Sequence record: OZ035771.1
Reading direction: 5' to 3' (one strand)
From: Phapecoctavirus DIJ07P2
DNA: 64,000 nucleotides
Shown here: piece after piece, positions 638 through 61,800 of the stretch
Layout: each line of letters starts with the position of its first letter
How positions within the stretch are numbered: the stretch's first letter is position 1
Program-made: the position numbers and the translations under genes
Notes under the pieces: model-generated
What the model was told of the DNA's origin: nothing
The model's input: the letters and a program-made list of their open reading frames with translations, nothing else
The model's database searches: none

Positions 638-817
638 ATGGCACGTTTAGCAGACCATGAAATCTTTAAACCTATTCTGAACCACTATGATGAACTTAAA
701 GCAGTGTTGGATTGTTATAGAGAGGATGAAGAACGTTTGGAAGTCAATCTTAAGATAGTTCTGATGAAAGCTTTTCAAGACGGGCAAGCTAAAGTTTTAG
801 AAGGCATGAAAAAATGA
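638..817 (+). CDS. hypothetical small protein (59 aa)
   Basis: track ORF 602..817 trimmed to ATG 638 preceded by AAGGAG; stop overlaps next start. Confidence 0.5.
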   Translation: MARLADHEIFKPILNHYDELKAVLDCYREDEERLEVNLKIVLMKAFQDGQAKVLEGMKK

Positions 818-1356
818 GAATAACTGATGAATATGTATTCTTCTTTTCACATAAAGATGTGTTTAGTAATTGGTATATTGCACCCTTTACAGAAACTGAA
901 CCAGGTTACAATGAGACTTTCTGTTGTGTTGAGCAATATATGATGTGGCGTAAGGCTTTGCTGTTCAAGGATCATGCGATTGCAGCAGCTATCCTTGATC
1001 ACTCAACTATACGTGACAACGAGAGGAAACAAGCATACTACAAACGTATGGGTCGAGCGGTATCTGGTTTTAATAATGATATGTGGGAAGAGAACCGTGA
1101 GCGTATTGTTATGCGAGGTTTATGCTTGAAATATGTACAGAATCCAGATTTGTATGCAGACTTACACCTTTACCAATACAAAACGTTTGTTGAAGCAAGT
1201 CCTTACGATAAGGTTTACGGTATTGGAATGGGAATGTATGAACCAGGGGTGCTAAATCCGGTCAACTGGAAAGGGCAAAATCTTTTAGGTAAATATCATA
1301 ACAAACTGATCGAAATACTTTTCCCAGACAAAATACCGCAAAGACGATATTTGTGA
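814..1356 (+). CDS. NADAR (YbiA-like) domain protein
   Basis: N-terminal FFFSxxDxFSNWY and EQYMMWRKA motifs plus C-terminal YGIGMG...GQNLLGK resemble YbiA/NADAR proteins. Confidence 0.7.
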   Translation: MRITDEYVFFFSHKDVFSNWYIAPFTETEPGYNETFCCVEQYMMWRKALLFKDHAIAAAILDHSTIRDNERKQAYYKRMGRAVSGFNNDMWEENRERIVMRGLCLKYVQNPDLYADLHLYQYKTFVEASPYDKVYGIGMGMYEPGVLNPVNWKGQNLLGKYHNKLIEILFPDKIPQRRYL

Positions 1357-22580: not shown

Positions 22581-22623
22581 GCTAGAACCCACCTAAATCA
22601 AACAGAGACGCTCTAAAATAGGA

Positions 22624-22650
22624 AAGGCACCCAAGTGGGTGCCTTTATTT
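22624..22650. terminator. bidirectional terminator between convergent modules
   Basis: AAGGCACCC-aagt-GGGTGCCTT with A-tract upstream and T-tract downstream. Confidence 0.65.
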
Positions 22651-22922
22651 TATTCTTCGTTAGATTGCGTTTCAGACGCGTTAAATTCGGTTTCAGTACA
22701 ACTTGCTAGGTAACTTATGTTTTGCATCACTACAACTACAGGTGTTTTAAGTTTATCTTCTAGCCCAGCAGCCACTTGAGCCAAGGCATTATCAATATTT
22801 GATTTCCTAACACCTGTTCCATGCCCTGTTGCCAAGTAAAGATTACCTTCCCCTTTTTGTGTAGCATTAGCAAAGTAGTAAACGTAATGTGCAAGGTAGT
22901 AATCACGGATTTCTTCAGTCAT
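22650..22922 (-). CDS. hypothetical protein (90 aa)
   Basis: track ORF. Confidence 0.45.
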   Translation of the reverse strand: MTEEIRDYYLAHYVYYFANATQKGEGNLYLATGHGTGVRKSNIDNALAQVAAGLEDKLKTPVVVVMQNISYLASCTETEFNASETQSNEE

Positions 22923-22965
22923 TTTATTCTCCTAATAAGAAAGGGGCCGAAGCCCCTTGAGTGGT

Positions 22966-23766
22966 TTATTTGTTTAAATGGTCTTCAACCATTTTGATAA
23001 AGCCTTCATCACTGAAGACTGTTCCTGCTTTCTCTCGGTAGACAAGCACTCCACGTTCTTCGTAGAGAGTTTGTTCTACAAAATTCAAACCTGGGTTAAC
23101 TACAACCATCTTAACCCCAATATTCAGGGCAGGGAAGAGTTCCCAGTTGAAGTTGATTACTTGGTTAGAGCAGCCTACAACGATAACCATATCTTGTGAT
23201 GTTAGTTGATCCAGTTTGTGATACATGTCTGTGTAGAGCGGTGCATTCTCACCAAAAAACACCACATTAGGCTTCACATATTTGTAATCGTCTACATCAA
23301 TAGCTGCGTAACCCACATCTTTGATAATTTTGTTATCAACAACAACTTCTGGCAAGAAACCATGAACGTGCAATATTTCTTCTCTATCGATTCCAGCGCG
23401 TTCTAATAGATCGTCAACGTTAGTAGTGATGTTAATAATCCTTTCTGCACCGTATTTTTCGAACCATTCTCCAATCTGAAGATGTGCTGGATTCGGGTCA
23501 ACTTTCTCTAATTCCACGCGACGTTTATTGTAGAAGTCGTGAGTTTTACGGTAGAGGTTATATCCTTCCACATCTAAGCCACCCATAGCATCAGGAATAC
23601 CCTGTTCTTGCTGATAACCGGCACGGAAGTTGAAAATGTCACAAACCTCAGAAAGATCATAAGAAGACCATAACGCCTCCCCTGAAGAAGTATCTGTTCT
23701 AAAAGCTGGGATACCGCTATCCACAGATAGTCCTGCGCCAGTTATGAATATGACTCTACGCGGCAT
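22966..23766 (-). CDS. Sir2-family protein (no zinc ribbon)
   Basis: GAGLSVDSGIPAFR, TTNVDDL, HG, VVFFGE motifs; no CxxC...CxxC module. Confidence 0.7.
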   Translation of the reverse strand: MPRRVIFITGAGLSVDSGIPAFRTDTSSGEALWSSYDLSEVCDIFNFRAGYQQEQGIPDAMGGLDVEGYNLYRKTHDFYNKRRVELEKVDPNPAHLQIGEWFEKYGAERIINITTNVDDLLERAGIDREEILHVHGFLPEVVVDNKIIKDVGYAAIDVDDYKYVKPNVVFFGENAPLYTDMYHKLDQLTSQDMVIVVGCSNQVINFNWELFPALNIGVKMVVVNPGLNFVEQTLYEERGVLVYREKAGTVFSDEGFIKMVEDHLNK

Positions 23767-24496
23767 AAATCTCCTCCTTATATTTTTCGCAAATGCTTTT
23801 ATTTGCAGGTTTATATTTTTCTTTCATCACCTTCAATCTTAGCTTCTCCAGAGCTATAGCACATCTCTCTGGATCGTTGAAACCATATTTGCAATACGTG
23901 GTCTTGTCAAACACAAACTTGAAAAAGAATGTTCTCTCTCTTGTTGCCACAAACACACAACTTAATCCTGAAGTGTTATCTATACGCTTCTTTTCTTTTT
24001 TGATATAAGATCCTTTCAAAATTTCTTGTTTTGCTAAAGCTCTAGCTACAATAGCTTCCTCTTTAGTTTTGAAACCTGAAACAGAGAAAGTTTCTTGGTT
24101 GTAGTTTATAACCCAAAGAAAAACACCATCCTTTTCATAAATACCTTCTAACCCATCCACATGTCTATTATTATTATTTAATAAATAGTTACTATCTAAT
24201 AAATTACTTTCCGCATTATTAAGTTTATTGCCGTCGTCATGGTCTATAACATCTGGACAGTAATTATGGTACATTTTAAAACAAACTCTGTGCTCCAAGT
24301 ATACAATACCATCTATTTTGACATGAGAGTAACCAACTTTATCAATAGTCCCTGCAATCTTCCCTGCGTATCTGCTATTCCACCTTTTGTTCTCTTTTGT
24401 TGTAGAAGGTTTAGGTTTCCAAACAAGACGACCATTCTCCACACTAAACCTTGATAACAAGTAATCTCTATCTGGTAAGGGTTTTCGTTCTATCAT
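23756..24496 (-). CDS. HNH homing endonuclease with AP2-like DNA-binding domain
   Basis: YLEHRVCFKMYHNYCPDVIDHDDGNKLNNAESNL HNH motif; GFKTKEEAIVARA AP2-like segment. Confidence 0.75.
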   Translation of the reverse strand: MIERKPLPDRDYLLSRFSVENGRLVWKPKPSTTKENKRWNSRYAGKIAGTIDKVGYSHVKIDGIVYLEHRVCFKMYHNYCPDVIDHDDGNKLNNAESNLLDSNYLLNNNNRHVDGLEGIYEKDGVFLWVINYNQETFSVSGFKTKEEAIVARALAKQEILKGSYIKKEKKRIDNTSGLSCVFVATRERTFFFKFVFDKTTYCKYGFNDPERCAIALEKLRLKVMKEKYKPANKSICEKYKEEIYAA

Positions 24497-24981
24497 TCAC
24501 CCTCGTCCTCCTCAAATGGATCATAAGAATCATATTCGTAAGTATCATCTTCTGAAAATTCTACTTCAAAGTAAATATCAAACTCTGCAAACAAACGTAG
24601 AATGTTGGACATGCTGTAATAGTTATCATAAGCTTCCTCTGCTTCATAGTAGAGGCGTAGCAAACGTTCAGCTTCTTCATCTTCTACCCATTTATGATCG
24701 ACATAGACAGAAGCAGCGTAGGTATTGTAGGCTTGTTCCCGAATATCGACAAGATTTCGGCTCAACAGTTCAGGGAAGTCCTTATAATTTACATTCAGTC
24801 TTCCGCATAACCACAAAGCAATATCATGCCAATCTGCATCCATACCACTAAAGCAACTTGCTTCTTCTCCAAAAGAAGCTTCTCCTAAATCACCACTAAT
24901 ACGAACAACATTAGATGAATTATAGCCACACGTTTCACAATCAGAGTAACTATTATGCACATTGATATTTACTTGAAACAT
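24493..24981 (-). CDS. highly acidic hypothetical protein (162 aa)
   Basis: Asp/Glu-rich throughout, C-terminus DDTYEYDSYDPFEEDEGE. Confidence 0.5.
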   Translation of the reverse strand: MFQVNINVHNSYSDCETCGYNSSNVVRISGDLGEASFGEEASCFSGMDADWHDIALWLCGRLNVNYKDFPELLSRNLVDIREQAYNTYAASVYVDHKWVEDEEAERLLRLYYEAEEAYDNYYSMSNILRLFAEFDIYFEVEFSEDDTYEYDSYDPFEEDEGE

Positions 24982-26765: not shown

Positions 26766-27437
26766 TCAATAACCTCCTTCGTAAGGTTTCACCTTAGCCC
26801 TATCATAATATAACATCTCTGCCTCCTTCCGTTTACGAATAGCTTCTTCTTTACTGTTACCATAGTATAAACTAATATGCTCTCCATTGACTCGGATGTA
26901 TGCAATCCATTTGCCCCTATCTTTTCTGTATTTTACCCCACAAATACCGGATAGATTATCTTTCCTTAGTTTTTGATCATAAGATTGCATTGCGAGTGAA
27001 GCCCACTCACAGGTTTCTTTGCTATAAACATCAGCAGAATTAATTCTGTTTAAGGTTGTGTTTTGTGGTCTACTACCCATATCCTCAACGAAATTCAAAA
27101 AACCTAAGTCCCCCTTCTCTAACCATCTACAGCATACAGAAACTCCACTACCTCCATACTTAGGATAATTCGGTGAGTTCTCATTGGTGCACCTGTCTAT
27201 CATGGCATTGTAGGAATTATATGTATATCTATCCTCAATGAACTTGTAATGGTAACGCTCACAACCACAAGATTTAGTTTTACCAGATTTTAATCTTTCG
27301 GCTGTAGTAACAAACTTCTCACCGCAATGACAAATACAATTCCATTTTGTAGATCGTCCAGTCTCCTTAATTGCTACATCAAGAACTGTTATACCATTGA
27401 ATACCATTCCAGACAGGTTTTCTAATTTCCTCCCCAT
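26766..27437 (-). CDS. homing-endonuclease-like protein with AP2 domains
   Basis: Cys cluster WNCICHCG..KSCGC, VSVCCRW segment, GVKYRKDRGKWIAYIRVNGEHISLYYGNSKEEA AP2 module; start trimmed to ATG 27437. Confidence 0.55.
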   Translation of the reverse strand: MGRKLENLSGMVFNGITVLDVAIKETGRSTKWNCICHCGEKFVTTAERLKSGKTKSCGCERYHYKFIEDRYTYNSYNAMIDRCTNENSPNYPKYGGSGVSVCCRWLEKGDLGFLNFVEDMGSRPQNTTLNRINSADVYSKETCEWASLAMQSYDQKLRKDNLSGICGVKYRKDRGKWIAYIRVNGEHISLYYGNSKEEAIRKRKEAEMLYYDRAKVKPYEGGY

Positions 27438-27438
27438 A

Positions 27439-28374
27439 CTATTCCTCAAAAGGTTTAAGTAAGTGTTTATTAGCGTGGAATCTTTTGATGTAATCATCTT
27501 CTCCCATACTTTCATAAAGCTTCATCACGACATGGAAGGATTCATAGGCATATTCACGAAACCAACCACTAGTGATAGATGTGCAAACTTTAGATAAAGC
27601 CATCATAAAACTTTGCTTAGGTGTTGGACCTCCGATCTCTTCACCGAAAGGAATTTGTGAACGTTCCAAAGCCAAAACACACGCTTCTTCATAAACACCT
27701 AACAGGCGCACATGTTTTGGTTGAGCAAAAAACTTTTCTTTGCTGGTCATAACTTCACTTCCATCTTTCATATAAGATTTATATGCTGGAGCATCCATTA
27801 CCGCGATTGCTTCATGGATAGAATCATGATCATAAACATACGGAACCTCATCACCTTTAAAGAAGTCTTTACTTTTTACGTTTAAGTTCGGATGAGAGTA
27901 AGTGTATGTTTCTTTCTCACGCAACTCATAAATACTCTTAAGATTTTCTGGGATCTTTGCGCCCAGTGACCGCATGAAATGAATATCTTTCATAGTTTTA
28001 AAGAAGTGAGGACTATCCTTTTTAAAACGATGACTCATTTTAAGAAGGTAGAGCACATCTAAAGGAGCAACAACATGTCCAGCGTAAGTTCGACGAACAT
28101 CATCAGAATCTTCACAATAACTAATCAAAGCTTCTGTGCTATCTCCTTGAGAAGCAATATCGTATTCCAAATGTGCACCAGCTATCATTTTGACGTGGCC
28201 TTTGTTCCCTTTACGTTCTACAAGTTCAACAAACTCGTCTTGAGAGAACATTTTTGATAATTCTTCCCACTCTTGTTCTGTACAGAGATAATCTAAATCT
28301 ACACAAGGGCGATACAAGTCTTTTCCCATGTCCATAGCATGAATTTGTAATGCACGGCTACCAATTAACACCAT
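27439..28374 (-). CDS. hypothetical protein with possible nucleotidyltransferase-like motif
   Basis: N-terminal LIGSRAL...VDLDY resembles hG[GS]...DxD of Pol-beta-type NTases but spacing is atypical. Confidence 0.4.
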   Translation of the reverse strand: MVLIGSRALQIHAMDMGKDLYRPCVDLDYLCTEQEWEELSKMFSQDEFVELVERKGNKGHVKMIAGAHLEYDIASQGDSTEALISYCEDSDDVRRTYAGHVVAPLDVLYLLKMSHRFKKDSPHFFKTMKDIHFMRSLGAKIPENLKSIYELREKETYTYSHPNLNVKSKDFFKGDEVPYVYDHDSIHEAIAVMDAPAYKSYMKDGSEVMTSKEKFFAQPKHVRLLGVYEEACVLALERSQIPFGEEIGGPTPKQSFMMALSKVCTSITSGWFREYAYESFHVVMKLYESMGEDDYIKRFHANKHLLKPFEE

Positions 28375-30809: not shown

Positions 30810-31101
30810 AAGGTGTATAGGGTTCCGTATTTCTCATGATCCAAGGACTGCTAGGATTGCTCGGATCATAAGGACCAAAAGGTTTTATGGTAGGTTGTGT
30901 TTCTTTCTTCTGAATCTCTTCAAAAATACGACGAAGTTCAGAATATTCTTGATCCACCATAAGATTCGGTGCATCTGATTCTACAGCTTGCAGATTATCT
31001 TCCTTAAAAAGAATCTCACGAACAAGATTAACATCTTCTGTTTCTAAGATAACTTCTTTACGGATATTGCCTACACTTTGAATAATTGTAATCTTATACA
31101 T
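30793..31101 (-). CDS. hypothetical protein (102 aa)
   Basis: track ORF. Confidence 0.45.
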   Translation of the reverse strand: MYKITIIQSVGNIRKEVILETEDVNLVREILFKEDNLQAVESDAPNLMVDQEYSELRRIFEEIQKKETQPTIKPFGPYDPSNPSSPWIMRNTEPYTPFEITC

Positions 31102-31844
31102 TAATCCTCCTCAAGAGTTGAATAAAATTGAAGACCACCGTCCATATCGAAATAAGCAAATGTTAAGTTATTATTGAACACAGATCCAGTATCCATATAA
31201 ACACGATTCGCATTGATAATAGGTGTTTTTACATAAGAGTGTCCATGAAACACATAGTCCACACCCATCACAACAGGAAGTTTCATTCCCTCTTTAGCAC
31301 AGTCCACCATATCTCTGTCCCACATAAGTGCTTCAGCAAAACGGTTTTCCTGTGTTTTTGTCATCTTCAAAGTGTATTCTGGAATATCTGTTACAGGGAG
31401 ATATTCCAAAGAAGATGGATACCCACCATGAATAAACGCAAGTTTCATGCCTCTGTAGTTAACAATGAGAACAACAGGTAAATCTTCTGTCATCATTGCT
31501 AAGGCTGTAGCTCCTTCTTCACCACATTCTTCAAGGACTGTATATCCTCCATTTTGATACCAACACTCGAAGTAGCTACGATCTCCTTCCAGCATAGCTT
31601 TAATCATCATGTCTTCATGATTTCCACGAATAGCATAGCGATTGTGTTTACGAGTAAATTCTAAAACACAACGAAAGTTTTGCTTTCCACGGTCAGTAAG
31701 ATCTCCTAAAGATACAACTACATCTGTATCTCGGATACCTAACTTTGCCTTTCCTTTTTCATACAAATTATAACAACCGTGCAGATCTCCAATTATAAAA
31801 AGATCTTGATCGCTTTTAACAGTAATTTCTCTATGTATGATCAC
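31101..31844 (-). CDS. Ser/Thr protein phosphatase (PPP / lambda-phosphatase family)
   Basis: GDLHG, GDLTDRG, GNHE metallophosphatase motifs. Confidence 0.8.
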   Translation of the reverse strand: MIIHREITVKSDQDLFIIGDLHGCYNLYEKGKAKLGIRDTDVVVSLGDLTDRGKQNFRCVLEFTRKHNRYAIRGNHEDMMIKAMLEGDRSYFECWYQNGGYTVLEECGEEGATALAMMTEDLPVVLIVNYRGMKLAFIHGGYPSSLEYLPVTDIPEYTLKMTKTQENRFAEALMWDRDMVDCAKEGMKLPVVMGVDYVFHGHSYVKTPIINANRVYMDTGSVFNNNLTFAYFDMDGGLQFYSTLEED

Positions 31845-32180: not shown

Positions 32181-32771
32181 TCAAATTATTAACGAAACCG
32201 CATGACTAAATTTTGGTTCAGATATAACCTCTGCTACAGTCACATATGTATCGTGCAGCCAAAAAGATTCTACTCTACAAACACAAATACCGTTGATAAT
32301 GAAATCTACACAGGCTTTATTATTTTCGCACACTTGTTGTCTATAAACAACCCCTAAAGAGTCATAAAGTGATCTCACTGTTGCTACCATTTCATCTGTT
32401 TCATCTTCGTGCGAAACAAAGAAAACGAATACAGACAAGTTGTTAGCGAAAGTACTGCTATTCTCTACTTCAACCGACTTACAAGGTAAAAAGGAGTAAT
32501 ATTTACCGTTAGGTATCAATTTCGCCTCAACCTGGTTAAGTATGCTTTGAGATGGTTTTGTTACATAAAAAAGATTTTCTGTTGGGTTTTCAACATTACT
32601 CCTTACTATGCAACGAGTGGGGTTCGAAGGATCAAAAACATGATCGAAATCGACACACACAGGTAAGTTAACAACTTTAAACTTTTTGCTAAGAATGCTT
32701 ACTGCGGTAAAAATCAAACCAGCGTTTATTTTGCCAGTGAAAGTTGAACGCATAACTACTCCTCGGATCAT
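32181..32771 (-). CDS. hypothetical protein (196 aa)
   Basis: track ORF. Confidence 0.45.
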   Translation of the reverse strand: MIRGVVMRSTFTGKINAGLIFTAVSILSKKFKVVNLPVCVDFDHVFDPSNPTRCIVRSNVENPTENLFYVTKPSQSILNQVEAKLIPNGKYYSFLPCKSVEVENSSTFANNLSVFVFFVSHEDETDEMVATVRSLYDSLGVVYRQQVCENNKACVDFIINGICVCRVESFWLHDTYVTVAEVISEPKFSHAVSLII

Positions 32772-34432: not shown

Positions 34433-35125
34433 TTAAATAGCGGTTCCTTCGAAATCCGCCACATTTACGAGATTAATATTTTCAGATTTAGAAGTCAAGT
34501 TGTTTTCTGCAACAGATTTTTCTTCAGTATCCGCCTCGTTACCTGCCACGTTACGAGGTTCTTCTTCACCGTAGGGATTACCGAATTTCAAAAGATTGAT
34601 TAATTCTTCTTTGGAGAAGTTTTCTAAATCATCGTCTGTTAATTCAATAATCTCGTCTTGTTCTTCAATAAATGTTTCACCACCAGAAAAAGCATCTCGC
34701 TTTTTAGCTACTTCCATAGCTTGTTCTGGTGTTGCCCCTGCATCAAGAGCAGCTAAAGCAAAGTCTGACCCACTTCCTACTGCATAATATTCTTCATCAA
34801 TCGGATATGCACGTGTTGGATTGTTACCTTCGTGCAGGAAAATACGTCCGTCTGGATGAACAACAAGCGCAATAAACTCTTCATCTTCTTTATCTGGATC
34901 AGAATGAATCATCAAACCAGGGACAGCATCACGTGCTGCTTCGCACTGTAGGTTTTGTTCAAACCATTGAAAGAAAGAAAGCACGGAGGTCAGACGACCA
35001 GCACCACCTACAAGGTAATCTCCAATTTTTCGGACCTTTTTGAAATTAATAGAATCTACACGTCCGCCAAAAGTTACCTTACCATCACTCAAAATCTTAT
35101 TCTTGGTTGCAATAATTGTCGTCAC
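34433..35125 (-). CDS. HslV-like (proteasome beta-type) peptidase with long acidic C-terminal tail
   Basis: N-terminus MTTIIATKN (Thr right after Met), GGAG and GSGSDFALAA motifs; ~70-aa Glu/Asp-rich extension. Confidence 0.65.
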   Translation of the reverse strand: MTTIIATKNKILSDGKVTFGGRVDSINFKKVRKIGDYLVGGAGRLTSVLSFFQWFEQNLQCEAARDAVPGLMIHSDPDKEDEEFIALVVHPDGRIFLHEGNNPTRAYPIDEEYYAVGSGSDFALAALDAGATPEQAMEVAKKRDAFSGGETFIEEQDEIIELTDDDLENFSKEELINLLKFGNPYGEEEPRNVAGNEADTEEKSVAENNLTSKSENINLVNVADFEGTAI

Positions 35126-35660: not shown

Positions 35661-36470
35661 TTAAATAAACACTTCAGTAATCAGTTTAGACAAACGTCCA
35701 CGTTTATTATCGTCCGTTGTCAGTTCAACATATCCAATAAAATCTACAATTGGCTCACGAACACCTTCTTCATTTTCTGGATATAAAAGTTCCAAAATTT
35801 GATGCAGACCATTGCTACGTTTTTTAATTGCATATGTCTGGCGAACATCGCCTAATACAATAACATGCGTATTAATACCTGCACGTTCAATAAGAAGTTT
35901 AAGTGTTTCTGTTGACATAAGTTGTGCTTCGTCAATAATGACAATTGTATTATCCAGGGTAGCTCCCAACAAATAGTTAGGAATATTCAATTCGATCTTA
36001 CCTGATCCAATATCATTTTCCAATTTATTGGCTGTCATGAATTGCTGGAAAATACGTTTTGTAGATTCGTAGTGTGCTGCTAGTTTATCTGTTTTATCCC
36101 CAGACAAGAAACCAATCTGGTCATCTCCGACTTCAGTAGGGTTCTTGATAAAAAGTAGTTTACGGAAGTCTCCTGAACGAAGCATCTGCAAAGCTTTCCA
36201 TAAAGCAACAGAGGTTTTACCAGTCCCTGCCGGAGCATTTACAACAGTCAGATCATTCCAAATCATGCTTTGAACAATCTTATTTTGGTCCCCTTCAGGC
36301 ATAAATTCATCTAAACGGTAATCGTCATTACCTACCGCTTTTGCTGCATAACGGCTTTCAATCTTTGCTGAATTAGCCAGTTTCTGCCGTTGTGTTTTAG
36401 CTGCGGTTTTATTTCCCATAGTAGCACTCCTTTTAGAAGGGGCCGAAGCCCCTTTATTAGTTGTAAGCAT
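35661..36470 (-). CDS. phoH: PhoH-like ATPase
   Basis: Walker A NAPAGTGKTS, Walker B IIDEAQ. Confidence 0.8.
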   Translation of the reverse strand: MLTTNKGASAPSKRSATMGNKTAAKTQRQKLANSAKIESRYAAKAVGNDDYRLDEFMPEGDQNKIVQSMIWNDLTVVNAPAGTGKTSVALWKALQMLRSGDFRKLLFIKNPTEVGDDQIGFLSGDKTDKLAAHYESTKRIFQQFMTANKLENDIGSGKIELNIPNYLLGATLDNTIVIIDEAQLMSTETLKLLIERAGINTHVIVLGDVRQTYAIKKRSNGLHQILELLYPENEEGVREPIVDFIGYVELTTDDNKRGRLSKLITEVFI

Positions 36471-51915: not shown

Positions 51916-52641
51916 TTACTTGTTAATAATACCTGCAATATTAGGTTTGACAAAGGTCGATGGTTTCATAATCTTACCTTTATCATCAAAGAACACATAC
52001 ACTTTCTGTTTTTCATTATAAACAGCATGAACACCAGTGTATGCCCCTTCTGGACGATTGGCATTTCGTTCTTCAATTGCAGCGCATTCTTGTGCAATGG
52101 CTGAATTGATATCCGAAGTTTTCCAAGTTTTCAGCAACTGTTGTTTAGTTGGATACTTGGAATCATTACTTTTCAATACCTCTTTAATAACTTTCTTTTC
52201 TGGATATTTTGAACGGATTAGAGTGTCACGAGACATACGCATAATACCAGCAGCCATTAGTGCCATTTGAACTGGCTCTGTAAATGTTTGTTCCAAAGCA
52301 TCGAAATCGGTATACACAGTTGGAGTAAAAACATCGCCTACAGCATAGTCCAAGAAATTCATCGTATGTTCTTCACCAAAGAACATGTAAGTCAGATAAC
52401 TGGATACTACAAAAATATCCGCTGCTGCATCCAAGAGTTCTACATGATCGTTTACTTTCGCGGCTGTTTCATACTCTTTAAGCTCTTCACGAACGAACCC
52501 GATTTGGGACATAAATAGCTCTTGAGTGAATTCAGGTTGTTCACCACCTCGTGCTTTGGCATTCCAATCAATTACGTGCTTTGCTGCATTTTTGAAAAAT
52601 TCAGTATCGAATTTAATATCTTTAAAAAAATTCTCGATCAT
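51916..52641 (-). CDS. hypothetical protein, possibly MazG-like NTP pyrophosphohydrolase
   Basis: REELKEYETAAKVNDHVELLDAAADI loosely resembles MazG acidic helix motifs. Confidence 0.35.
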   Translation of the reverse strand: MIENFFKDIKFDTEFFKNAAKHVIDWNAKARGGEQPEFTQELFMSQIGFVREELKEYETAAKVNDHVELLDAAADIFVVSSYLTYMFFGEEHTMNFLDYAVGDVFTPTVYTDFDALEQTFTEPVQMALMAAGIMRMSRDTLIRSKYPEKKVIKEVLKSNDSKYPTKQQLLKTWKTSDINSAIAQECAAIEERNANRPEGAYTGVHAVYNEKQKVYVFFDDKGKIMKPSTFVKPNIAGIINK

Positions 52642-52650
52642 TATAACTCC

Positions 52651-52911
52651 TTATTTAAAATAGCTTTCTAGAAAGTTGCTAATATTTACTACAGTCTCAC
52701 CCATGTAAATTCCTGCGAAACCGAAAACAAGCATACGTGGAATATTGAAATACCATTTATCCGCCGGAAAATATGCCAGAATTACAATAGCAATTGCTAT
52801 CAACATCATAAGAATTGTTGCTAAAATTATCATAAAAATGCCTCCAGGTATTTTGCACAATGATAAGCTAAGAAACAAGAAACTACCGCATACCCAACTC
52901 CAGACATACAT
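52651..52911 (-). CDS. small membrane protein (86 aa)
   Basis: three hydrophobic segments. Confidence 0.45.
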   Translation of the reverse strand: MYVWSWVCGSFLFLSLSLCKIPGGIFMIILATILMMLIAIAIVILAYFPADKWYFNIPRMLVFGFAGIYMGETVVNISNFLESYFK

Positions 52912-53033
52912 GAATCAATCGCAACACATATGGTTCTTTTCTTTGAATTCTTAGGAAAGTTTTCAGAAGCATTCATACAATAAAAAGAAAGCACACTGAA
53001 AACGATTAAAATGGCTAAGAACATTTTTCCTCC

Positions 53034-54161
53034 TTATTCTGCTGGTTCCCAAGTGCCTGGGATCATTTCTCGAATACGAACACCAACAGGTTTTGTTGGA
53101 ATACCTTCATCTGAAAATTCTTCATACTCTATTTCAACGAACTGATTAATCAAGGTAGAAGCATTCTCTGCTTTACGATAATTGATAGTCTCATGAGCAT
53201 CTTTACGCATTAAGAATTCGACTACTTTACCATTTTCCATCTCACCTGTCAACACTCCATCACCATTTTTATCACTTTTTGAATTTGTTACTTTAACTTC
53301 AAGGGTGTGGCGAGGCTTACGTTTAATAACGTCATAAGAACGTTTATCAAATTCGTAAACTCCGTGAGCATTACGATATACTACACCTTCAGCTTTCTCA
53401 AGTAAAGCTTTTTCATAGAAAGCATCAAACTGTTCTTGGTTTTCAATATACTCTGTATGAACTACGCAAATAAGCTCGTCAAGACCATAATCTTCAACTA
53501 CTGCCTTAAGAGCAGCAAGAACATCAACACGTTTTTCAAACGGTAGATCTGGAACTGGAATATCATATACGTAATAATTCAGCAAAGGTGTATTTGCATT
53601 ATGCTTCTTCCAGGCACTGTTAATTTGTTGCAGACTAAGGACACCTAACCCAGCAAACACTTCACCATCAAGAGGATGACCAACAACTTCACTAATAAAG
53701 TTTGGAATACCTTTCCAATGAGGTGGCAGGTTATACACTTCCCCAGCTTTTGATAAACACTCCCCTTTCATGTTAATCATAGAACGTAACCCGTTCAGTT
53801 TGTATTGTGCATAACCAGGGAACACAACCCTTTCAGGATAATCTTTATAATCCTGGCATTTCATTGGTGTAGAAGGAACATGGTTTTCAGCTTCTTCTTT
53901 TGTTTTATAATAGCCATTCTTTAACTGTTTTGTCCATTTGGCAAAAGCTTCAAGTTCAGCTTGTTCTTCTGGTGTTGTTTCATTGGAACGACCGATGTTT
54001 TTTGCTTCTGCTGTATAAGATTTTTCTGTGATTTTTCCACCTACCCTTCCATGAGCTACAGTAACAACTGCACCATCTGTATACACTGTCCACTGTTTAA
54101 GTTTTCCTTTTGAATCTTTACCATACAGTGTTTGATTTGTTTGTTGCATTAGTCCTCCCAT
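53034..54161 (-). CDS. ATP-dependent DNA ligase
   Basis: motif I KLNGLR, motif III DGEVFA, motif IV EGVVYR, motif V VIKRK. Confidence 0.7.
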   Translation of the reverse strand: MGGLMQQTNQTLYGKDSKGKLKQWTVYTDGAVVTVAHGRVGGKITEKSYTAEAKNIGRSNETTPEEQAELEAFAKWTKQLKNGYYKTKEEAENHVPSTPMKCQDYKDYPERVVFPGYAQYKLNGLRSMINMKGECLSKAGEVYNLPPHWKGIPNFISEVVGHPLDGEVFAGLGVLSLQQINSAWKKHNANTPLLNYYVYDIPVPDLPFEKRVDVLAALKAVVEDYGLDELICVVHTEYIENQEQFDAFYEKALLEKAEGVVYRNAHGVYEFDKRSYDVIKRKPRHTLEVKVTNSKSDKNGDGVLTGEMENGKVVEFLMRKDAHETINYRKAENASTLINQFVEIEYEEFSDEGIPTKPVGVRIREMIPGTWEPAE

Positions 54162-54370
54162 TTAAAAACTGAAATTTTCAATCTGTTACACACTTCATCC
54201 AAATCTGCGTCGAGTAACGTTGTAGATGTTGCCAACATATAATCAATGCTTGTGAAACCTTGCCCTTTGGCATAGTCAAGCATATCTTCATACATATCTT
54301 CAAGATCACCGTCATCAAAAGTAGCTAGAAAATCCTCGTCCCCGCTACGAACATAAAATGCAGTACTCAT
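54149..54370 (-). CDS. hypothetical acidic protein (73 aa)
   Basis: track ORF. Confidence 0.4.
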   Translation of the reverse strand: MSTAFYVRSGDEDFLATFDDGDLEDMYEDMLDYAKGQGFTSIDYMLATSTTLLDADLDEVCNRLKISVFKWED

Positions 54371-54558
54371 TCATCTTCATCCCAAGATTCAAAAGCACAA
54401 CAATCATCGGTTTCTATAATACCGACACGTCCACAGGTATTGCAAGTGATTTTATCCCCGTAGAATAAATAATTTTTATCACCCTCTGTGTTTACAGTTA
54501 TGTCATTACTACCACAAGGGCAAGTCAGCCAACCAACAACAACGATATCTTTTTTCAT
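54367..54558 (-). CDS. zinc-ribbon protein (63 aa)
   Basis: CPCGSND...CNTCGRVG. Confidence 0.45.
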   Translation of the reverse strand: MKKDIVVVGWLTCPCGSNDITVNTEGDKNYLFYGDKITCNTCGRVGIIETDDCCAFESWDEDE

Positions 54559-54567
54559 AATCCCTCC

Positions 54568-54894
54568 TTAAGCATTCAGTTCGTTGTTGAGTTCGTAAAT
54601 CTCTTCTTGAAGAGAATCGATCTCTTCCTCCAAACGGGAGATCTCTTCTTTTAGATATACCATTTCAGATTCTTTCTCTTCTAACTCATTTTCAAATTTT
54701 ACTTTATTCGCCTCATTTTCATAATGGAGTTCAGCGTAATCATCGCGCATTTGTTCAATAAGATGAATCAGAGACAAGATGTAATTATCTCCCGTTTCAT
54801 CACGCCACTCTTCACCGTGGCGGAGAACGGTAATTCGTCCAGTATCTTCATCTAAAATTGTCTCATATTTACGATCATCTGTATAAATCTGCAT
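54568..54894 (-). CDS. coiled-coil protein (108 aa)
   Basis: heptad-like EELEEKESEMVYLKEEISRLEEEIDSLQEEIYEL. Confidence 0.45.
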   Translation of the reverse strand: MQIYTDDRKYETILDEDTGRITVLRHGEEWRDETGDNYILSLIHLIEQMRDDYAELHYENEANKVKFENELEEKESEMVYLKEEISRLEEEIDSLQEEIYELNNELNA

Positions 54895-54903
54895 TATTAC
54901 TCC

Positions 54904-55308
54904 TTATTGAAGTTTAAGTGAACCACGAAGACGTTTCTCTTGCTGATCACGAATATATTGTGGAACCTCGTGAATTGAATCATTACCGTGCCTATTTTCA
55001 ACAACTAAAGAGATAACTTGATAACCAAACTCTTCAGCAAGAGTTAGATAAGGTTTAAGTTCTTTCTCTGTGGTTGAAGTGTTAGAAACAATAATCTTGT
55101 TAAGATTAGATGCCATAGCATCACGAACAATATTCTGACACCATGCGTGTGCTTTACCTACATTTTCTGGCTTCCAATCGTAAACACCACTTTCTGTGTA
55201 ATGATATTGATCTGCCTCACAGATAGGCCAATAACCTTCAGAAATAATTTCTGCTACCGTAGATTTACCAGCACCTGAAACGCCACGTAAAATGATAAGT
55301 TGTTTCAT
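54904..55308 (-). CDS. P-loop kinase (polynucleotide-kinase-like)
   Basis: Walker A GVSGAGKST at N-terminus, 134 aa, adjacent to ligase and phosphoesterase. Confidence 0.55.
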   Translation of the reverse strand: MKQLIILRGVSGAGKSTVAEIISEGYWPICEADQYHYTESGVYDWKPENVGKAHAWCQNIVRDAMASNLNKIIVSNTSTTEKELKPYLTLAEEFGYQVISLVVENRHGNDSIHEVPQYIRDQQEKRLRGSLKLQ

Positions 55309-56241
55309 TTATCCTCCAAAGAAGTTTTCGATTTTTTCACGTCGCTCCTGCTGATTTAAAGCAGCCCATTGAGTCTTCGTAAAATTATTTCGAATCCATT
55401 CTAACAAAGCGTAATATTCTTCGTCAACAATTTGTTTGGCATTTTTTGGATTATCCCAAATCAGATCCCACTTTTTATCTCCACCACGCATAAGAAACTT
55501 CTTAGTAAGATAGTGTGGTGATTTAATTTTTAAAAGTAAGTTGAACGGATAGTTTGTTTCACGAACTACAAACCCTTCGTGTTTACAATGTTTAGACATT
55601 TCAACAACATCTGAAAACTTAACCATTGGATGAACTTCAGGACGCTTAAATTTGGTGACAGAAGCAATTCCATCAAGAGCACCTTCAGGTAACATAAAAC
55701 TTGTCCCATCAGGATTTTGAATTCTGGCACCAATTAAGTATGCACCTGGTTCTTCTTCGACAATATGCGGATCAGAAGGATCACAGATTTCAAACAGGAA
55801 AGTTGCTTTTGCACTCTCTGCCCATTTGATGAAATGTTCTATGTCATCGCACTCTGAAACAATATGATTCTTTGCAATACTTGCAAAATCTGATTCAAGG
55901 CTTCCTGTTGTCGATACAATAAGTTGACCTTTATATACACCTACAGAGGCCATAAAACCATTTACTTTACGAACCACATCTACAAGTTCATCCGCTGGTA
56001 GATCTGTGCCATTCTCAAAACGATTAAAAATCTTAGTGAAAGGCCAAATAACAACATTGTCATCAGCATCAACAACGATTCCGCGACATTCTAGAAGACG
56101 AGAATCAATGTTCCATAGGTTATCCCAGAAAACTTTGTTCTTATACTTAAGAACAGATAGACCAGAATACTCTCCTTCTTTATATGTTTTCTTATGAACT
56201 AAACCTTTTTCAACCAAATCGTCGCAATTAAATTTAGTCAC
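55309..56241 (-). CDS. RNA-ligase-like nucleotidyltransferase
   Basis: motif I KVNG, motif IV EGFVVR, motif V LKIK; second ligase in region, beside kinase and phosphoesterase. Confidence 0.55.
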   Translation of the reverse strand: MTKFNCDDLVEKGLVHKKTYKEGEYSGLSVLKYKNKVFWDNLWNIDSRLLECRGIVVDADDNVVIWPFTKIFNRFENGTDLPADELVDVVRKVNGFMASVGVYKGQLIVSTTGSLESDFASIAKNHIVSECDDIEHFIKWAESAKATFLFEICDPSDPHIVEEEPGAYLIGARIQNPDGTSFMLPEGALDGIASVTKFKRPEVHPMVKFSDVVEMSKHCKHEGFVVRETNYPFNLLLKIKSPHYLTKKFLMRGGDKKWDLIWDNPKNAKQIVDEEYYALLEWIRNNFTKTQWAALNQQERREKIENFFGG

Positions 56242-56242
56242 A

Positions 56243-56794
56243 TTACTCTCCTTTGATTATTTTGTGATGGTCTACAGTTACGATATCTCGTTTACTCATC
56301 ATAGAAATTATCTCATCAAAATGTAAGATTTTTCCGTGTGCATCCCAACCCACATCTAACATTTTACCATAAGCTTCATCAGGGAAAGATCCGTGGGAAT
56401 GCCCGTGTAGCATGATTGATCCACGACCTTGTTTATTCCAGGAGGCTATAGGGTAATGGCTTAAGACGAAGAACAGCTTCTGATATTTCACTTCGTCATA
56501 ATACACCACTTCTCCATACTCTGCAAGCACTTCTCGGTGTTTGCTGTAATCATGGTTCCCAACACAATAAGTGATATCCCCTTGGAGGCGGGAAGCAATC
56601 TTACGGGTATCTTCTTCAGTCCCGAAACAGAAGTCACCCAAATGCCACATCTTGACACCTGGACTCGTAGCGCATTTATTCCATGCTTCGATCAGTGCTT
56701 CTGTCATGTGGTCCATATCTTCCCACGGTCGATATTCAGGAGCAAACTCTCGTATACGTTTGTGCATAAAATGCAAATCACTTGTAATAAACAT
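56243..56794 (-). CDS. calcineurin-like metallophosphoesterase
   Basis: DLHFMH, GDFCFG, GNHD, GHSHG motifs. Confidence 0.75.
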   Translation of the reverse strand: MFITSDLHFMHKRIREFAPEYRPWEDMDHMTEALIEAWNKCATSPGVKMWHLGDFCFGTEEDTRKIASRLQGDITYCVGNHDYSKHREVLAEYGEVVYYDEVKYQKLFFVLSHYPIASWNKQGRGSIMLHGHSHGSFPDEAYGKMLDVGWDAHGKILHFDEIISMMSKRDIVTVDHHKIIKGE

Positions 56795-57150
56795 TAGTAT
56801 AATCCCTCGCTAAATAGGTCACGATCATGACCATTACGTTCGTAGTCAATCTGGTCTGCGTGTTTTGCAATAATGTATGCATCTTCACGACTCCACCAAT
56901 TGTAGTATTGATCAATAAAACCTTGATTGTTTGGAAGACAATGCACTTTATCAAGTACACCTGCTTCTTTCAATACATTCAATTGTGCAGATAATACAGG
57001 ATTTGCATGTCGAACACAAGGAATAATTAACTCTTCACCATTATTCAAAATATACTTATTTGCAGCACAGACGATAACACGTTGCGCATAATGACCCTCA
57101 CCCATCCAGGTAAGAGGTTGGTAACAAATGTTGTTTTCAATACCACTCAT
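56794..57150 (-). CDS. hypothetical protein (118 aa)
   Basis: track ORF. Confidence 0.45.
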   Translation of the reverse strand: MSGIENNICYQPLTWMGEGHYAQRVIVCAANKYILNNGEELIIPCVRHANPVLSAQLNVLKEAGVLDKVHCLPNNQGFIDQYYNWWSREDAYIIAKHADQIDYERNGHDRDLFSEGLY

Positions 57151-57309
57151 TGTTTCCTAATCCTCCTCTCTTAAGTTATCCTCGAAAAAACTAGTATCTG
57201 GAAGTAAAAGATCATTACTTGTGTCGGGCCAATCCTCTTCTTCTCGGTAGATAAAGTAACCTTCGTCCTCTTCTTGTTCCGACCAAACCGAATGATGCAT
57301 GTTCTCTCC

Positions 57310-57666
57310 TTAATAGTGCACACGAATCATTTTAATACCATAACGCAGCATGGATTCTTTTGCAAGCATGAATTTATCCCCAGCGGCGGGATTAGAAGTA
57401 TGCACGAAAATGGTAGGTGAACCAAAGCAAGGTTTACCAAATGCCAGAAGTTCTTCCAGGCACAGGAAAACATCATACCCATCTTGGTCAGAATCTTCAC
57501 CCAAATCGTTGTCAAAATGCCACTCGTCTACAAAACGATAACCCTTCTGCACCTCATTCATGTAGCGAGAGGCAAGAAGTTCCTGTGATGTTTTAAACCA
57601 GATTGCATCTGGACAACCATAATCTTTTGGATCACGTAAATCATCAAGCCAAATAATAGTACCCAT
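57310..57666 (-). CDS. hypothetical protein (118 aa)
   Basis: track ORF. Confidence 0.45.
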   Translation of the reverse strand: MGTIIWLDDLRDPKDYGCPDAIWFKTSQELLASRYMNEVQKGYRFVDEWHFDNDLGEDSDQDGYDVFLCLEELLAFGKPCFGSPTIFVHTSNPAAGDKFMLAKESMLRYGIKMIRVHY

Positions 57667-61423: not shown

Positions 61424-61498
61424 GGCCCTGTAGCTCAATGGGAGAGCTGTCGGCTCATAACCGATAGGTAGCTGGATCGAAACCAGCCAGGGCCACCA
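61424..61498 (+). tRNA. tRNA-Met (CAT) or Ile2
   Basis: acceptor GGCCCTG/CAGGGCC, anticodon loop CTCATAA, T-arm GCTGG-ATCGAAA-CCAGC, A73, CCA encoded. Confidence 0.75.
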
Positions 61499-61500
61499 AC

Positions 61501-61771: not shown

Positions 61772-61800
61772 TTGACAACAAGCATTATTTTATGTTAGAT
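61772..61800 (+). promoter_or_regulatory. sigma70-like promoter for downstream tRNAs
   Basis: TTGACA 61772, 17-nt spacer, TTAGAT. Confidence 0.45.

What the first reader, a model, noticed from the sequence alone, without database searches (positions are those of the whole stretch)
22966..23766. Sir2-family protein lacking the zinc-ribbon module
Rossmann-type Sir2 motifs are present (GAGLSVDSGIPAFR, TTNVDDL, HG, VVFFGENAP) but no CxxC...CxxC zinc-binding insert is evident. Zinc-less Sir2 domains often act as NAD-consuming enzymes rather than deacetylases. In a phage this could manipulate the host NAD pool or counter NAD-depleting defence; it lies beside an HNH endonuclease.
Basis: partly seen in the sequence, partly recalled or inferred. 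Interest (0 to 1): 0.55.

Follow-up and report, generated by a model that had tools for sequence, protein, structure and literature searches.

The report
Zinc-free phage sirtuin, function untested
This gene is an intact copy of a sirtuin (NAD-using enzyme) family already annotated in about a thousand large phages; it has lost the usual zinc-binding cysteines but otherwise resembles ordinary CobB/SIRT5-type deacylases rather than the NAD-destroying defence enzymes, and what it acts on has never been tested.

Summary
ORF 22966-23766 (minus strand, 266 aa) is a Sir2-family protein (Pfam PF02146 E=2e-20; phrog_2162 E=2e-96) with all the cited motifs and no cysteine where sirtuins bind zinc.

The window is a Phapecoctavirus coliphage. 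An identical protein is already deposited, and about 980 phage records carry the family.

The zinc ribbon is degenerate rather than deleted. A shortened Cys-free hairpin remains, and zinc loss co-varies with a Gln-to-Thr change in the Q-N-I-D motif.

- It keeps the catalytic His, the acyl-lysine tunnel residues and the class III Tyr-x-x-Arg pair.

The HNH gene is a mobile insertion, not a partner.

My best guess is a CobB-like lysine deacylase (confidence about 0.4). The main rival is the published, untested idea of a KptA-like RNA 2'-phosphate remover. Gene neighbourhoods in rV5-like, T5-like and jumbo phages support that idea, but here the RNA-repair genes lie 28-34 kb away. Low to moderate interest.

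The parts
22966..23766 (-). Sir2-family (sirtuin) gene, 266 aa
   Evidence: ORF; PF02146 E=2.2e-20; phrog_2162 E=2e-96; AlphaFold model pLDDT 85, pTM 0.84; top fold matches are canonical sirtuins.
23771..23779 (-). Ribosome-binding site AAGGAGGAG, 4 nt upstream of the ATG
   Evidence: Read directly from the sequence.
23698..23739 (-). NAD-binding motif GAGLSVDSGIPAFR (residues 10-23)
   Evidence: G10, A11, G12, S14, S17, G18, F22 and R23 are invariant in 26 relatives; the motif aligns to GAGISAESGIPTFR of Sir2-Af2.
23518..23535 (-). F78-Y79-N-K-R82-R83: class III sirtuin Tyr-x-x-Arg anion-binding pair
   Evidence: Aligns to CobB F-Y92-N-A-R95-R and SIRT5 F-Y102-H-Y-R105-R. The CobB Y92A chain shows Ala opposite Y79. 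Invariant in the family.
23407..23427 (-). TTNVDDL (residues 114-120): variant of the Q-N-I-D nicotinamide-pocket motif, with Thr115 in place of Gln
   Evidence: T115, N116, V117 and D118 are invariant. The CobB I131C chain shows Cys opposite V117. Thr goes with zinc loss: 145 T/no-Zn and 57 Q/Zn against 18 exceptions.
23248..23364 (-). H135-G136 (catalytic His) through the FGE loop (E173): degenerate, Cys-free zinc-ribbon remnant
   Evidence: 39 aa with no Cys. Predicted hairpin strands at residues 140-143 and 146-149, pLDDT 74-84. Zinc-bearing relatives have two CxxC knuckles in a 47-aa segment. H135 aligns to CobB H147 and V168 to CobB V187.
22941..22958 (-). Terminator-like hairpin (GGGGC-TTCG-GCCCC plus T-run) just after the Sir2 stop codon
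   Evidence: Consensus scan only and direct reading of the sequence.
23756..24496 (-). HNH homing-endonuclease gene inserted at the junction between the upstream gene and Sir2; not a functional partner
   Evidence: phrog_99 E=3e-34 and HNH_3. Only 4 of 78 related records contain it; the others match in two pieces. In phage nieznany the upstream gene abuts Sir2 with a 1-nt overlap.
24493..24981 (-). 162-aa protein (phrog_9509), the lineage-specific upstream neighbour that is translationally coupled to Sir2 in HNH-free relatives; function unknown
22650..22922 (-). 90-aa protein (phrog_15991), downstream neighbour conserved in the sister genus; function unknown
57310..57666 (-). cREC (cyclic-phosphate-processing receiver) protein. 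It is a Sir2 neighbour in other lineages (adjacent to Sir2 in rV5-like phages, within the same gene cluster in Mydovirus and jumbo phages) but lies 34 kb away here.
   Evidence: PF20274 E=1.6e-13; orthologues in L003 and L006; jumbo-phage contexts.
54904..56794 (-). AAA_33 kinase, Rnl1-type RNA ligase and calcineurin-like phosphoesterase: an RNA end-healing and sealing module, a candidate functional context that is not linked to Sir2 here
   Evidence: PF13671, PF09511 and PF12850. The orthologues flank Sir2 in rV5-like and Mydovirus loci.

Best explanation
The gene encodes a catalytically competent sirtuin of a phage-specific clade that descends from CobB/SIRT5-type (class III) sirtuins. In this clade the four zinc cysteines have been lost and the zinc ribbon has shrunk to a Cys-free beta-hairpin. 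It binds NAD+ in the canonical pocket and cleaves off nicotinamide, so that an oxygen nucleophile of the substrate attacks C1' of the ribose. His135 then helps resolve the ADP-ribosyl intermediate. I think the substrate is most likely an acylated lysine on a host or phage protein, making this a CobB-like lysine deacylase. The retained Tyr79/Arg82 pair suggests a preference for acidic acyl groups such as succinyl or malonyl. Shown here: family membership, zinc-ligand loss, conservation of the catalytic and tunnel residues, and closeness to deacylases. Inferred: enzymatic activity and substrate. The confidence of 0.4 refers to the deacylase function. Membership of the phage sirtuin clade is nearly certain.
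For: - Family: PF02146 above cut-off, and the NCBIfam hits are all CobB-type deacylase models.
- Best PDB sequence matches are Sir2-Af2, CobB and SIRT5.
- Invariant residues across the family: GAG..S..SG..FR, N116, D118, H135, V168, F170, F171, E173, G198, S200, N224.
- Residue mapping to CobB: H135 = H147, V117 = I131, V168 = V187, Y79/R82 = Y92/R95. These also match SIRT5 Y102/R105. The mapping is confirmed by mutant chains that show the mutated residue at the aligned position.
- The family is uniformly acidic (pI 4.7-5.9, net charge -6 to -20) and has no extra conserved basic residues. That fits a protein-directed enzyme better than an RNA-binding one.
- Most Salmonella/T5-like phages carrying this sirtuin have no Rnl1 ligase or cREC. 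In this window Sir2 is not linked to the RNA-repair genes.
Against: - No biochemical data were found for any member.
- The CobB equivalog cut-offs are missed by a wide margin.
- The clade has lost zinc, replaced the conserved Gln of Q-N-I-D by Thr, and replaced the V-x-P-A loop (near-universal in deacylases, from my own knowledge) by V-I-N-F-N-W. The substrate site may therefore have changed.
- E. coli already has CobB, so the benefit to the phage is unclear.
- In three other lineages the gene sits among RNA-end and ADP-ribose-processing genes: RNA ligase-cREC-Sir2; 2H-Sir2-Nudix-cREC-PIN/PhoH; and Sir2 near HAD_SAK_2. A protein deacylase does not explain this.
Confidence: 0.4

Rival explanations
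1. RNA 2'-phosphotransferase analogous to KptA/Tpt1, as predicted by Iyer et al. 2022. During repair of tRNA or mRNA cut by host anticodon or other metal-independent nucleases, a 2'-phosphate on the RNA attacks NAD+ in the sirtuin pocket and nicotinamide leaves. His-assisted attack by the ribose 2''-OH then releases ADP-ribose 1''-2'' cyclic phosphate and clean RNA. cREC or 2H and Nudix enzymes then degrade that product.
For: - Published prediction for this clade (PMC9503650).
- I verified the neighbourhoods independently. rV5-like: polynucleotide kinase and phosphoesterase, then RNA ligase-cREC-sirtuin-MazG. Mydovirus KB57: phosphoesterase-RNA ligase-cREC-kinase-x-Sir2-DNA ligase. T5-like SP15: HAD_SAK_2 RNA-repair phosphatase two genes away, E=5e-20. 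Jumbo EJP2 and Erwinia phage 49: 2H-Sir2-Nudix-cREC-PIN/PhoH.
- This window encodes the full module (cREC, phosphoesterase, Rnl1, kinase, MazG) plus 10 tRNAs.
- KptA homologues occur in 98 phage records, from taxa that do not overlap the sirtuin-bearing taxa in the rows shown.
- The Tyr/Arg pair could bind a phosphate.
Against: - In this phage the gene lies 28-34 kb from the module.
- Most T5-like carriers lack Rnl1 and cREC: Salmonella phages number 289 with Sir2, against 15 and 14.
- The narrow hydrophobic acyl-lysine tunnel residues are fully conserved, with no new conserved basic residues, and the protein is strongly acidic.
- The absence of KptA overlap is statistically weak, since only about 2 shared records are expected by chance.
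- No sirtuin is known to act on RNA (my own knowledge).
Confidence: 0.3
2. One reading: an NAD+ glycohydrolase (NADase), or another enzyme acting on the NAD pool or on ADP-ribose-derived defence signals. It would be used to manipulate host metabolism or counter NAD-based immunity.
For: - Zinc cysteines are absent, as in defence SIR2 NADases.
- In other lineages the gene lies near NAD salvage or reconstitution genes: PRPS-like plus NAMPT-like in KB57, NMNAT plus NAMPT in EJP2 and Erwinia phage 49. It also lies near Acb1-like 2H, Nudix and NADAR proteins.
Against: - It has no sensor or partner domain to gate a toxic NADase.
- Depleting NAD+ would harm the phage itself, and in this window no NAD-salvage gene was found among the ORFs scanned.
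- Proximity to NAD salvage is expected for any NAD-consuming enzyme.
Confidence: 0.1
3. A protein (or nucleic-acid) mono-ADP-ribosyltransferase that modifies host targets, functionally like T4 Alt/Mod or the SirTM sirtuins.
For: Sirtuin chemistry allows ADP-ribosyl transfer, and SirTM shows a sirtuin can specialise in it (PMC4518038). These phage groups were not seen to carry an obvious T4-type ADP-ribosyltransferase in the regions examined.
Confidence: 0.08

Closest known systems
Phage sirtuin clade (phrog_2162; 'Sir2-like protein' of T5-like, rV5-like, phAPEC8-like, KVP40-like and jumbo phages; discussed by Iyer, Burroughs, Anantharaman and Aravind 2022, PMC9503650)
   Same: Same family. An identical protein is already deposited at NCBI. 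Identity is 95% to phage nieznany, 64% to Justusliebigvirus, 52-59% to T5-like phages, 49% to rV5-like phages and 30-39% to jumbo and KVP40-like phages. All share the Cys-free ribbon remnant and TTNVD.
   Different: In this genus the gene is not embedded in the RNA-repair neighbourhood used to predict the clade's function. It sits 28-34 kb from it, beside lineage-specific orphan genes and an HNH insertion.
Class III sirtuins: E. coli CobB, human SIRT5, Archaeoglobus Sir2-Af1
   Same: Closest solved relatives by sequence and fold. Shared NAD pocket, catalytic His, acyl-lysine tunnel residues and the Tyr-x-x-Arg pair that binds acidic acyl groups.
   Different: No zinc cysteines, and the ribbon is shortened. 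Thr replaces the conserved Gln before the catalytic Asn. The V-x-P-A loop is replaced by V-I-N-F-N-W. Identity is only 24-28%. NCBIfam CobB cut-offs are missed.
Defence-associated SIR2 NADases (ThsA, DSR1/DSR2, Sir2-HerA, KomC, Avs5, pAgo-associated SIR2)
   Same: Sirtuin-type Rossmann fold, NAD+ as substrate, no canonical zinc ribbon.
SirTM ADP-ribosylating sirtuins
   Same: Sirtuin fold; a precedent for a sirtuin clade with a non-deacylase activity.
   Different: SirTM keeps the zinc domain, has Gln in place of the catalytic His and is paired with a macrodomain. The query is the opposite on all three points.
KptA/Tpt1 RNA 2'-phosphotransferase
   Same: Possible functional analogy only: an NAD+-dependent enzyme found with RNA ligase, 2H, cREC and Nudix genes in phages. 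Its phage distribution is largely complementary to that of the phage sirtuin.
   Different: Unrelated fold (ADP-ribosyltransferase superfamily). The analogy is untested.

Membership tests
Sir2/sirtuin family (Pfam PF02146) | Profile match above the curated threshold | tested here: met
   73.8 bits against a cut-off of 24, covering profile positions 1-178 of 180.
Sir2/sirtuin family (Pfam PF02146) | NAD-binding and catalytic motifs: GAGxS..GIPxFR, (Q)N(I/V)D, HG with the catalytic His, FGE loop, G-x-S, and the N of the adenine-ribose site | tested here: met
   All are present and invariant in the family, with Thr in place of Gln in the second motif.
Sir2/sirtuin family (Pfam PF02146) | Cys4 zinc ribbon in the small domain | tested here: not met
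   No Cys between H135 and E173. None in 120 close relatives.
Sir2/sirtuin family (Pfam PF02146) | Sirtuin fold | tested here: met
Class III sirtuins (CobB/SIRT5 type) | Tyr-x-x-Arg pair in the acyl pocket | tested here: met
   Y79/R82 align to CobB Y92/R95 and SIRT5 Y102/R105 and are invariant.
Class III sirtuins (CobB/SIRT5 type) | Score above the NCBIfam CobB equivalog or subfamily cut-offs | tested here: not met
   Best scores are 95.6 bits against 243 and 84.1 bits against 320.
Class III sirtuins (CobB/SIRT5 type) | NAD-dependent lysine deacylase or desuccinylase activity | not testable with these tools
   Needs an enzyme assay.
Defence-associated SIR2 NADases | Match to SIR2_2 (PF13289) or to PADLOC models of ThsA, DSR, Sir2-HerA or SPARSA | tested here: not met
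   PF13289 scores 14.5 bits against a cut-off of 24.5. PADLOC gives no hits at E<=1.
Defence-associated SIR2 NADases | Fused or adjacent sensor or partner module (SLOG, HerA, pAgo, STAND, tail-tube-binding C-terminal domain) | tested here: not met
   The protein is a single 266-aa domain. Its neighbours are an HNH insertion, orphan proteins and a DNA methyltransferase.
Defence-associated SIR2 NADases | Closest structural neighbours are defence SIR2 proteins | tested here: not met
SirTM ADP-ribosylating sirtuins | Gln replaces the catalytic His, with a conserved partner Arg | tested here: not met
   His135 is invariant. The SirTM definition comes from PMC4518038.
SirTM ADP-ribosylating sirtuins | Operon or fusion with a macrodomain | tested here: not met
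   No macrodomain was found among the neighbours scanned.
Phage sirtuin clade predicted to act in RNA repair (Iyer et al. 2022) | Sequence membership with the rV5, Mydo, SP15 and Serratia-BF-type phage sirtuins | tested here: met
   phrog_2162 E=2e-96. Identity is 49-54% to rV5-like, SP15 and KB57 sirtuins and 39% to an Eneladusvirus BF-species phage.
Phage sirtuin clade predicted to act in RNA repair (Iyer et al. 2022) | Gene neighbourhood with RNA ligase, cREC, kinase, MazG, 2H, Nudix or HAD | tested here: not met
   Not adjacent in this window: the module lies at 51.9-57.7 kb and Sir2 at 23 kb. The feature is met in the rV5-like, Mydovirus, T5-like and jumbo loci.
Phage sirtuin clade predicted to act in RNA repair (Iyer et al. 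2022) | RNA 2'-phosphate removal activity | not testable with these tools
   It has not been tested by anyone, as far as the searchable literature shows.

The most novel reading that the evidence does not exclude
The phage sirtuin is a sirtuin-fold analogue of KptA/Tpt1. It would use NAD+ to strip 2'-phosphates from nuclease-damaged tRNA or mRNA, producing ADP-ribose cyclic phosphate that cREC, 2H and Nudix enzymes then clear. Loss of the zinc ribbon and the Gln-to-Thr change would be adaptations to an RNA or phosphate substrate. It would be the first sirtuin shown to act on nucleic acid, and a widespread phage counter-measure to tRNA-cleaving immunity. The idea has already been published as a prediction, so only its proof would be new.
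Probability: 0.3. Interest if true: 0.7.

Novelty: already known. Interest (0 to 1): 0.3.

Why it matters
About a thousand sequenced phages, including T5-like and rV5/phAPEC8-like phages used in therapy cocktails, carry this conserved NAD-consuming enzyme, and nobody has measured what it does. If it is a deacylase, phages rewrite host protein acylation during infection. If it is an RNA 2'-phosphate remover, it adds a new chemistry to the sirtuin family and a new layer to the conflict over tRNA cleavage. For the scan itself, the practical lesson is that 'zinc-less' alone does not place a Sir2 domain among the defence NADases. Two small details may be new, because the 2022 survey's text contains none of the terms Zn-ribbon, zinc ribbon or ZnR: zinc loss is clade-wide, and it co-varies with Gln-to-Thr in the nicotinamide-ribose motif.

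Tried and rejected
- **SirTM-type:** rejected because the catalytic His is kept, there is no zinc and there is no macrodomain.
- **HNH as a functional partner:** rejected. It is an insertion absent from most relatives.
- **A universal small partner protein:** the ORFs overlapping the Sir2 start belong to different PHROGs in each lineage (phrog_9509, 5827, 343, 13950; in rV5-like phages it is cREC, phrog_1479).
- **The 162-aa upstream protein:**
  - No PDB sequence hit, and only 9 lineage-restricted homologues.
  - The 'aminoacyl-tRNA synthetase' label in a related record is unsupported.
  - The idea that its CxxC motif supplies zinc in trans is pure speculation, and I dropped it.
- **Precedent for an active zinc-less deacylase (Sir2La):** I recalled this from memory, but the preprint text does not confirm it, so I do not use it.
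- **Promoter scan:** the only strong sigma-70-like site lies upstream of a terminator-like hairpin and is uninformative.
- **Literature:** five searches for experimental work on phage sirtuins found none.
- **KptA/sirtuin mutual exclusivity:** no overlap among the taxa shown, but only about 2 shared records are expected by chance, so this is only a hint. It is validated only by the hits being annotated as RNA 2'-phosphotransferase.

Full report
**Observation.** It matches Pfam SIR2 (PF02146) at 73.8 bits, E=2.2e-20, over almost the whole profile. It also matches the phage family phrog_2162 'Sir2' at E=2e-96. All four cited motifs are present. The protein has only two cysteines, C42 and C199, and neither lies in the region where sirtuins coordinate zinc. 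In HMMER alignments to Sir2-Af2 and E. coli CobB, their zinc cysteines face a shorter, Cys-free stretch of the query.

**Where the window comes from.** The window is a Phapecoctavirus (Stephanstirmvirinae) myovirus of E. coli. It is 98% identical over 24 kb to phage nepoznato. A protein 100% identical to this one is already held by NCBI. The gene is annotated 'Sir2-like' or 'NAD-dependent deacetylase' in dozens of relatives. By tblastn the family occurs in about 980 phage records: Phapecoctavirus and Justusliebigvirus, rV5-like Vequintavirinae and Mydovirus, T5-like Demerecviridae, KVP40-like vibriophages and several jumbo phages. In 909 of those records a single aligned place covers at least 80% of the protein.

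**The zinc site is degenerate across the clade, not deleted.**
- None of 26 diverse relatives has a cysteine between the HG and FGE motifs. None of 120 close relatives has three or more cysteines there.
- A search of 1.8 billion representative proteins returned 2065 relatives. I parsed 231 sequences in total. The nearest tier shares a Cys-free HG..FGE segment with a conserved D-(I/V)-G-Y centre. The next tier keeps a segment of almost the same length but with two intact CxxC knuckles.
- Median segment length is 47 aa with zinc ligands and 44 aa without; the query has 39 aa.
- The AlphaFold model (pLDDT 85, pTM 0.84) predicts a beta-hairpin at residues 140-149.
- Zinc loss co-varies with a change in the Q-N-(I/V)-D motif. 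There are 145 sequences with Thr and no zinc ligands and 57 with Gln and zinc ligands, against 18 exceptions.
- One zinc-bearing near relative sits in a cellular, Mollicutes-like context beside a lipoate-protein ligase. This suggests the zinc-bearing tier includes cellular sirtuins, though I checked only that one context.

**Which kind of sirtuin it is.**
- Sequence: the best PDB matches are Sir2-Af2, CobB and SIRT5. The NCBIfam hits are all CobB-type deacylase models, although far below their equivalog cut-offs. SIR2_2 (PF13289) is below threshold, and PADLOC, which models the defence SIR2 proteins, gives nothing at E<=1.
- Residues:
  - The catalytic His135 aligns to CobB H147.
  - V117 aligns to CobB I131; the I131C mutant chain shows Cys at that column.
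  - V168 aligns to CobB V187.
  - F78-Y79-N-K-R82-R83 aligns to CobB F-Y92-N-A-R95-R and SIRT5 F-Y102-H-Y-R105-R; the CobB Y92A chain shows Ala opposite Y79.
  - All of these residues are invariant in the phage family.
- Conclusion: the protein is a class III-derived sirtuin with an intact NAD pocket, acyl-lysine tunnel and anion-binding Tyr/Arg pair. It is not a SirTM, which keeps the zinc domain, replaces the His by Gln and is paired with a macrodomain (PMC4518038).

**Surroundings in the window.**
- The HNH gene (23756-24496) is a homing-endonuclease insertion. Only 4 of 78 related records contain it.
- In phage nieznany the upstream 157-aa gene abuts Sir2 with a 1-nt overlap.
- That upstream protein (24493-24981 here, phrog_9509) and the downstream 90-aa protein (phrog_15991) are conserved only within this phage subfamily.
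- A terminator-like hairpin follows the Sir2 stop codon, and a bidirectional terminator-like hairpin closes the block.
- Among the ORFs of 22.6-36.5 kb that I scanned, none is an NAD-salvage, macrodomain or RNA-repair gene. A calcineurin-like phosphoesterase lies 7 kb away and PhoH 12 kb away.

**The published hypothesis and my test of it.** Iyer et al. 2022 (PMC9503650) state that most viral sirtuins form a distinct clade in proteobacterial phages. They find that clade linked to RNA ligase, cREC, kinase, MazG, calcineurin-like, HAD, 2H, Nudix and PIN genes. They propose that it removes RNA 2'-phosphates as KptA does. I verified the contexts independently:
- rV5-like HeinrichReichert: polynucleotide kinase and phosphoesterase on one side, then RNA ligase-cREC-sirtuin-MazG-like.
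- Mydovirus KB57: phosphoesterase-RNA ligase-cREC-kinase-x-Sir2-DNA ligase. A PRPS-like plus NAMPT-like pair, a MazG-type enzyme and a NADAR protein lie nearby.
- T5-like SP15: a HAD_SAK_2 'RNA repair' phosphatase two genes away, E=5e-20.
- Jumbo phages EJP2 and Erwinia pEa_SNUABM_49: NMNAT, NAMPT, then 2H(Acb1-like)-Sir2-Nudix-cREC, followed in EJP2 by PIN/PhoH. The corresponding Erwinia ORF is the same length but I did not scan it.

This window encodes the same module: cREC 57310-57666, phosphoesterase 56243-56794, Rnl1-type ligase 55309-56241, AAA_33 kinase 54904-55308, DNA ligase 53034-54161 and MazG-like 51916-52641. It also carries ten tRNA genes. However, the module lies 28-34 kb from Sir2, so adjacency is not conserved in this lineage.

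**Weighing the models.**
- For the RNA-repair model: three or four independent neighbourhood architectures support it. The downstream enzymes (cREC or 2H, Nudix) are what one would need to clear ADP-ribose cyclic phosphate.
- Against the RNA-repair model:
  - The hydrophobic lysine tunnel is fully conserved, and no new conserved basic residues appear.
  - The family is uniformly acidic (pI 4.7-5.9, net charge -6 to -20).
  - Most T5-like carriers lack Rnl1 and cREC. Salmonella phages number 289 with Sir2, against 15 with Rnl1 and 14 with cREC.
  - In this phage the gene is not linked to the module.
- KptA distribution: KptA homologues occur in 98 phage records, mostly Erwinia, Dickeya and Klebsiella jumbo phages and Clostridioides phages. 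Their taxa do not overlap the sirtuin carriers in the rows shown. Only about two shared records would be expected by chance, so this is no more than a hint.
- For the NADase or counter-defence model: it rests only on zinc loss and on proximity to NAD-salvage genes in other lineages. Any NAD-consuming enzyme would show that proximity.
- My estimates: lysine deacylase of CobB/SIRT5 type 0.4, KptA-like RNA 2'-phosphate remover 0.3, NADase or NAD/ADP-ribose signal manipulation 0.1, ADP-ribosyltransferase 0.08, something else the remainder.

**Shown and inferred.**
- Shown: gene integrity; family and clade membership; zinc-ligand loss and its covariation with Gln-to-Thr; conservation of catalytic, tunnel and Tyr/Arg residues; structural closeness to deacylases; the insertion nature of the HNH gene; the gene contexts.
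- Inferred: that the enzyme is active, what its substrate is, and any role in infection.
- I found no experimental study of any phage sirtuin in the searchable literature.

**Novelty and verdict.** The gene, its family and the leading unconventional hypothesis are all already in the public record, so the finding is 'already known' with the function unresolved. The 2022 survey's text contains none of the terms Zn-ribbon, zinc ribbon or ZnR. The clade-wide zinc loss, the Gln-to-Thr covariation and the retained class III Tyr/Arg pair may therefore be small new descriptive points. Interest is low to moderate (0.3). The gene is ordinary as an annotation, but it is a good and cheap experimental target, because a handful of assays would decide between a conventional deacylase and the first RNA-directed sirtuin.

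Noticed in passing
window 51916-57666 (-): A complete RNA end-healing and sealing module: MazG-like pyrophosphohydrolase, ATP-dependent DNA ligase, AAA_33 kinase, T4 Rnl1-type RNA ligase, calcineurin-like phosphoesterase and a cREC 'cyclic-phosphate processing' protein. It is orthologous to the block that surrounds Sir2 in rV5-like and Mydovirus phages.
   Followed up: yes
window 814-1356 (+): A NADAR-domain protein (PF08719, E=8e-35), another ADP-ribose-processing enzyme in the same phage. A homologue lies 6 kb from Sir2 in Klebsiella phage KB57.
   Followed up: partly
window 61424-63822 (+): A cluster of 10 tRNA genes: Met, Arg, Ser, Asn, Thr, Gly, Gln, Pro, Ile, Met.
   Followed up: no
window 23756-24496 (-) and 26766-27515 (-): Two HNH/AP2-type homing-endonuclease-like ORFs. 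The first is an insertion at the junction between the phrog_9509 gene and Sir2, and is present in only about 4 of 78 related records.
   Followed up: yes
window 24493-24981 (-): An orphan 162-aa protein (phrog_9509) that is translationally coupled to Sir2 in HNH-free relatives. It has an invariant C-E-T-C-G motif plus a third Cys and an acidic tail. A BASEL phage record labels it 'putative aminoacyl-tRNA synthetase', which neither sequence nor fold supports.
   Followed up: yes
window 27439-28374 (-); L007 3099-3860: A DUF7275+DUF7277 protein lies a few kb upstream of Sir2 both here and in the distantly related KVP40-like vibriophage phi-pp2. This may be a conserved linkage; the function is unknown.
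   Followed up: partly
window 32181-32771 (-): A 196-aa ORF matches phrog_4806, labelled 'histidyl tRNA synthetase', but has no Pfam match. The label looks unreliable.
   Followed up: partly
window 34433-35125 (-), 35661-36470 (-), 31101-31844 (-): An HslV/proteasome-like peptidase, a PhoH-like ATPase and a calcineurin-like phosphoesterase lie in the same early-gene block. PhoH or PIN-PhoH recurs within a few kb of Sir2 in T5-like and jumbo phages.
   Followed up: partly
L006 (Klebsiella phage KB57) 1-992; L008 (EJP2) 1-2525; L009 812-3978: NAD reconstitution or salvage genes sit within 3-6 kb of the phage sirtuin in other lineages: PRPS-like plus NAMPT-like (resembling NARP1), or NMNAT plus NAMPT. 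I found none among the window ORFs I scanned.
   Followed up: partly
L008 4523-4954; L009 4281-4727: The 2H phosphoesterase immediately upstream of Sir2 in jumbo phages matches Pfam 'Anti-CBASS protein Acb1' (E about 1e-17). That module could therefore also be read as degrading signalling nucleotides rather than repairing RNA.
   Followed up: no
H97 (Escherichia phage DT57C, T5-like): Only a 14% fragment of the sirtuin matches in this record, which suggests the gene has been lost or disrupted in some T5-like phages and so is accessory.
   Followed up: no
window 22623-22646: A bidirectional terminator-like hairpin lies between the convergent plus-strand and minus-strand gene blocks.
   Followed up: no
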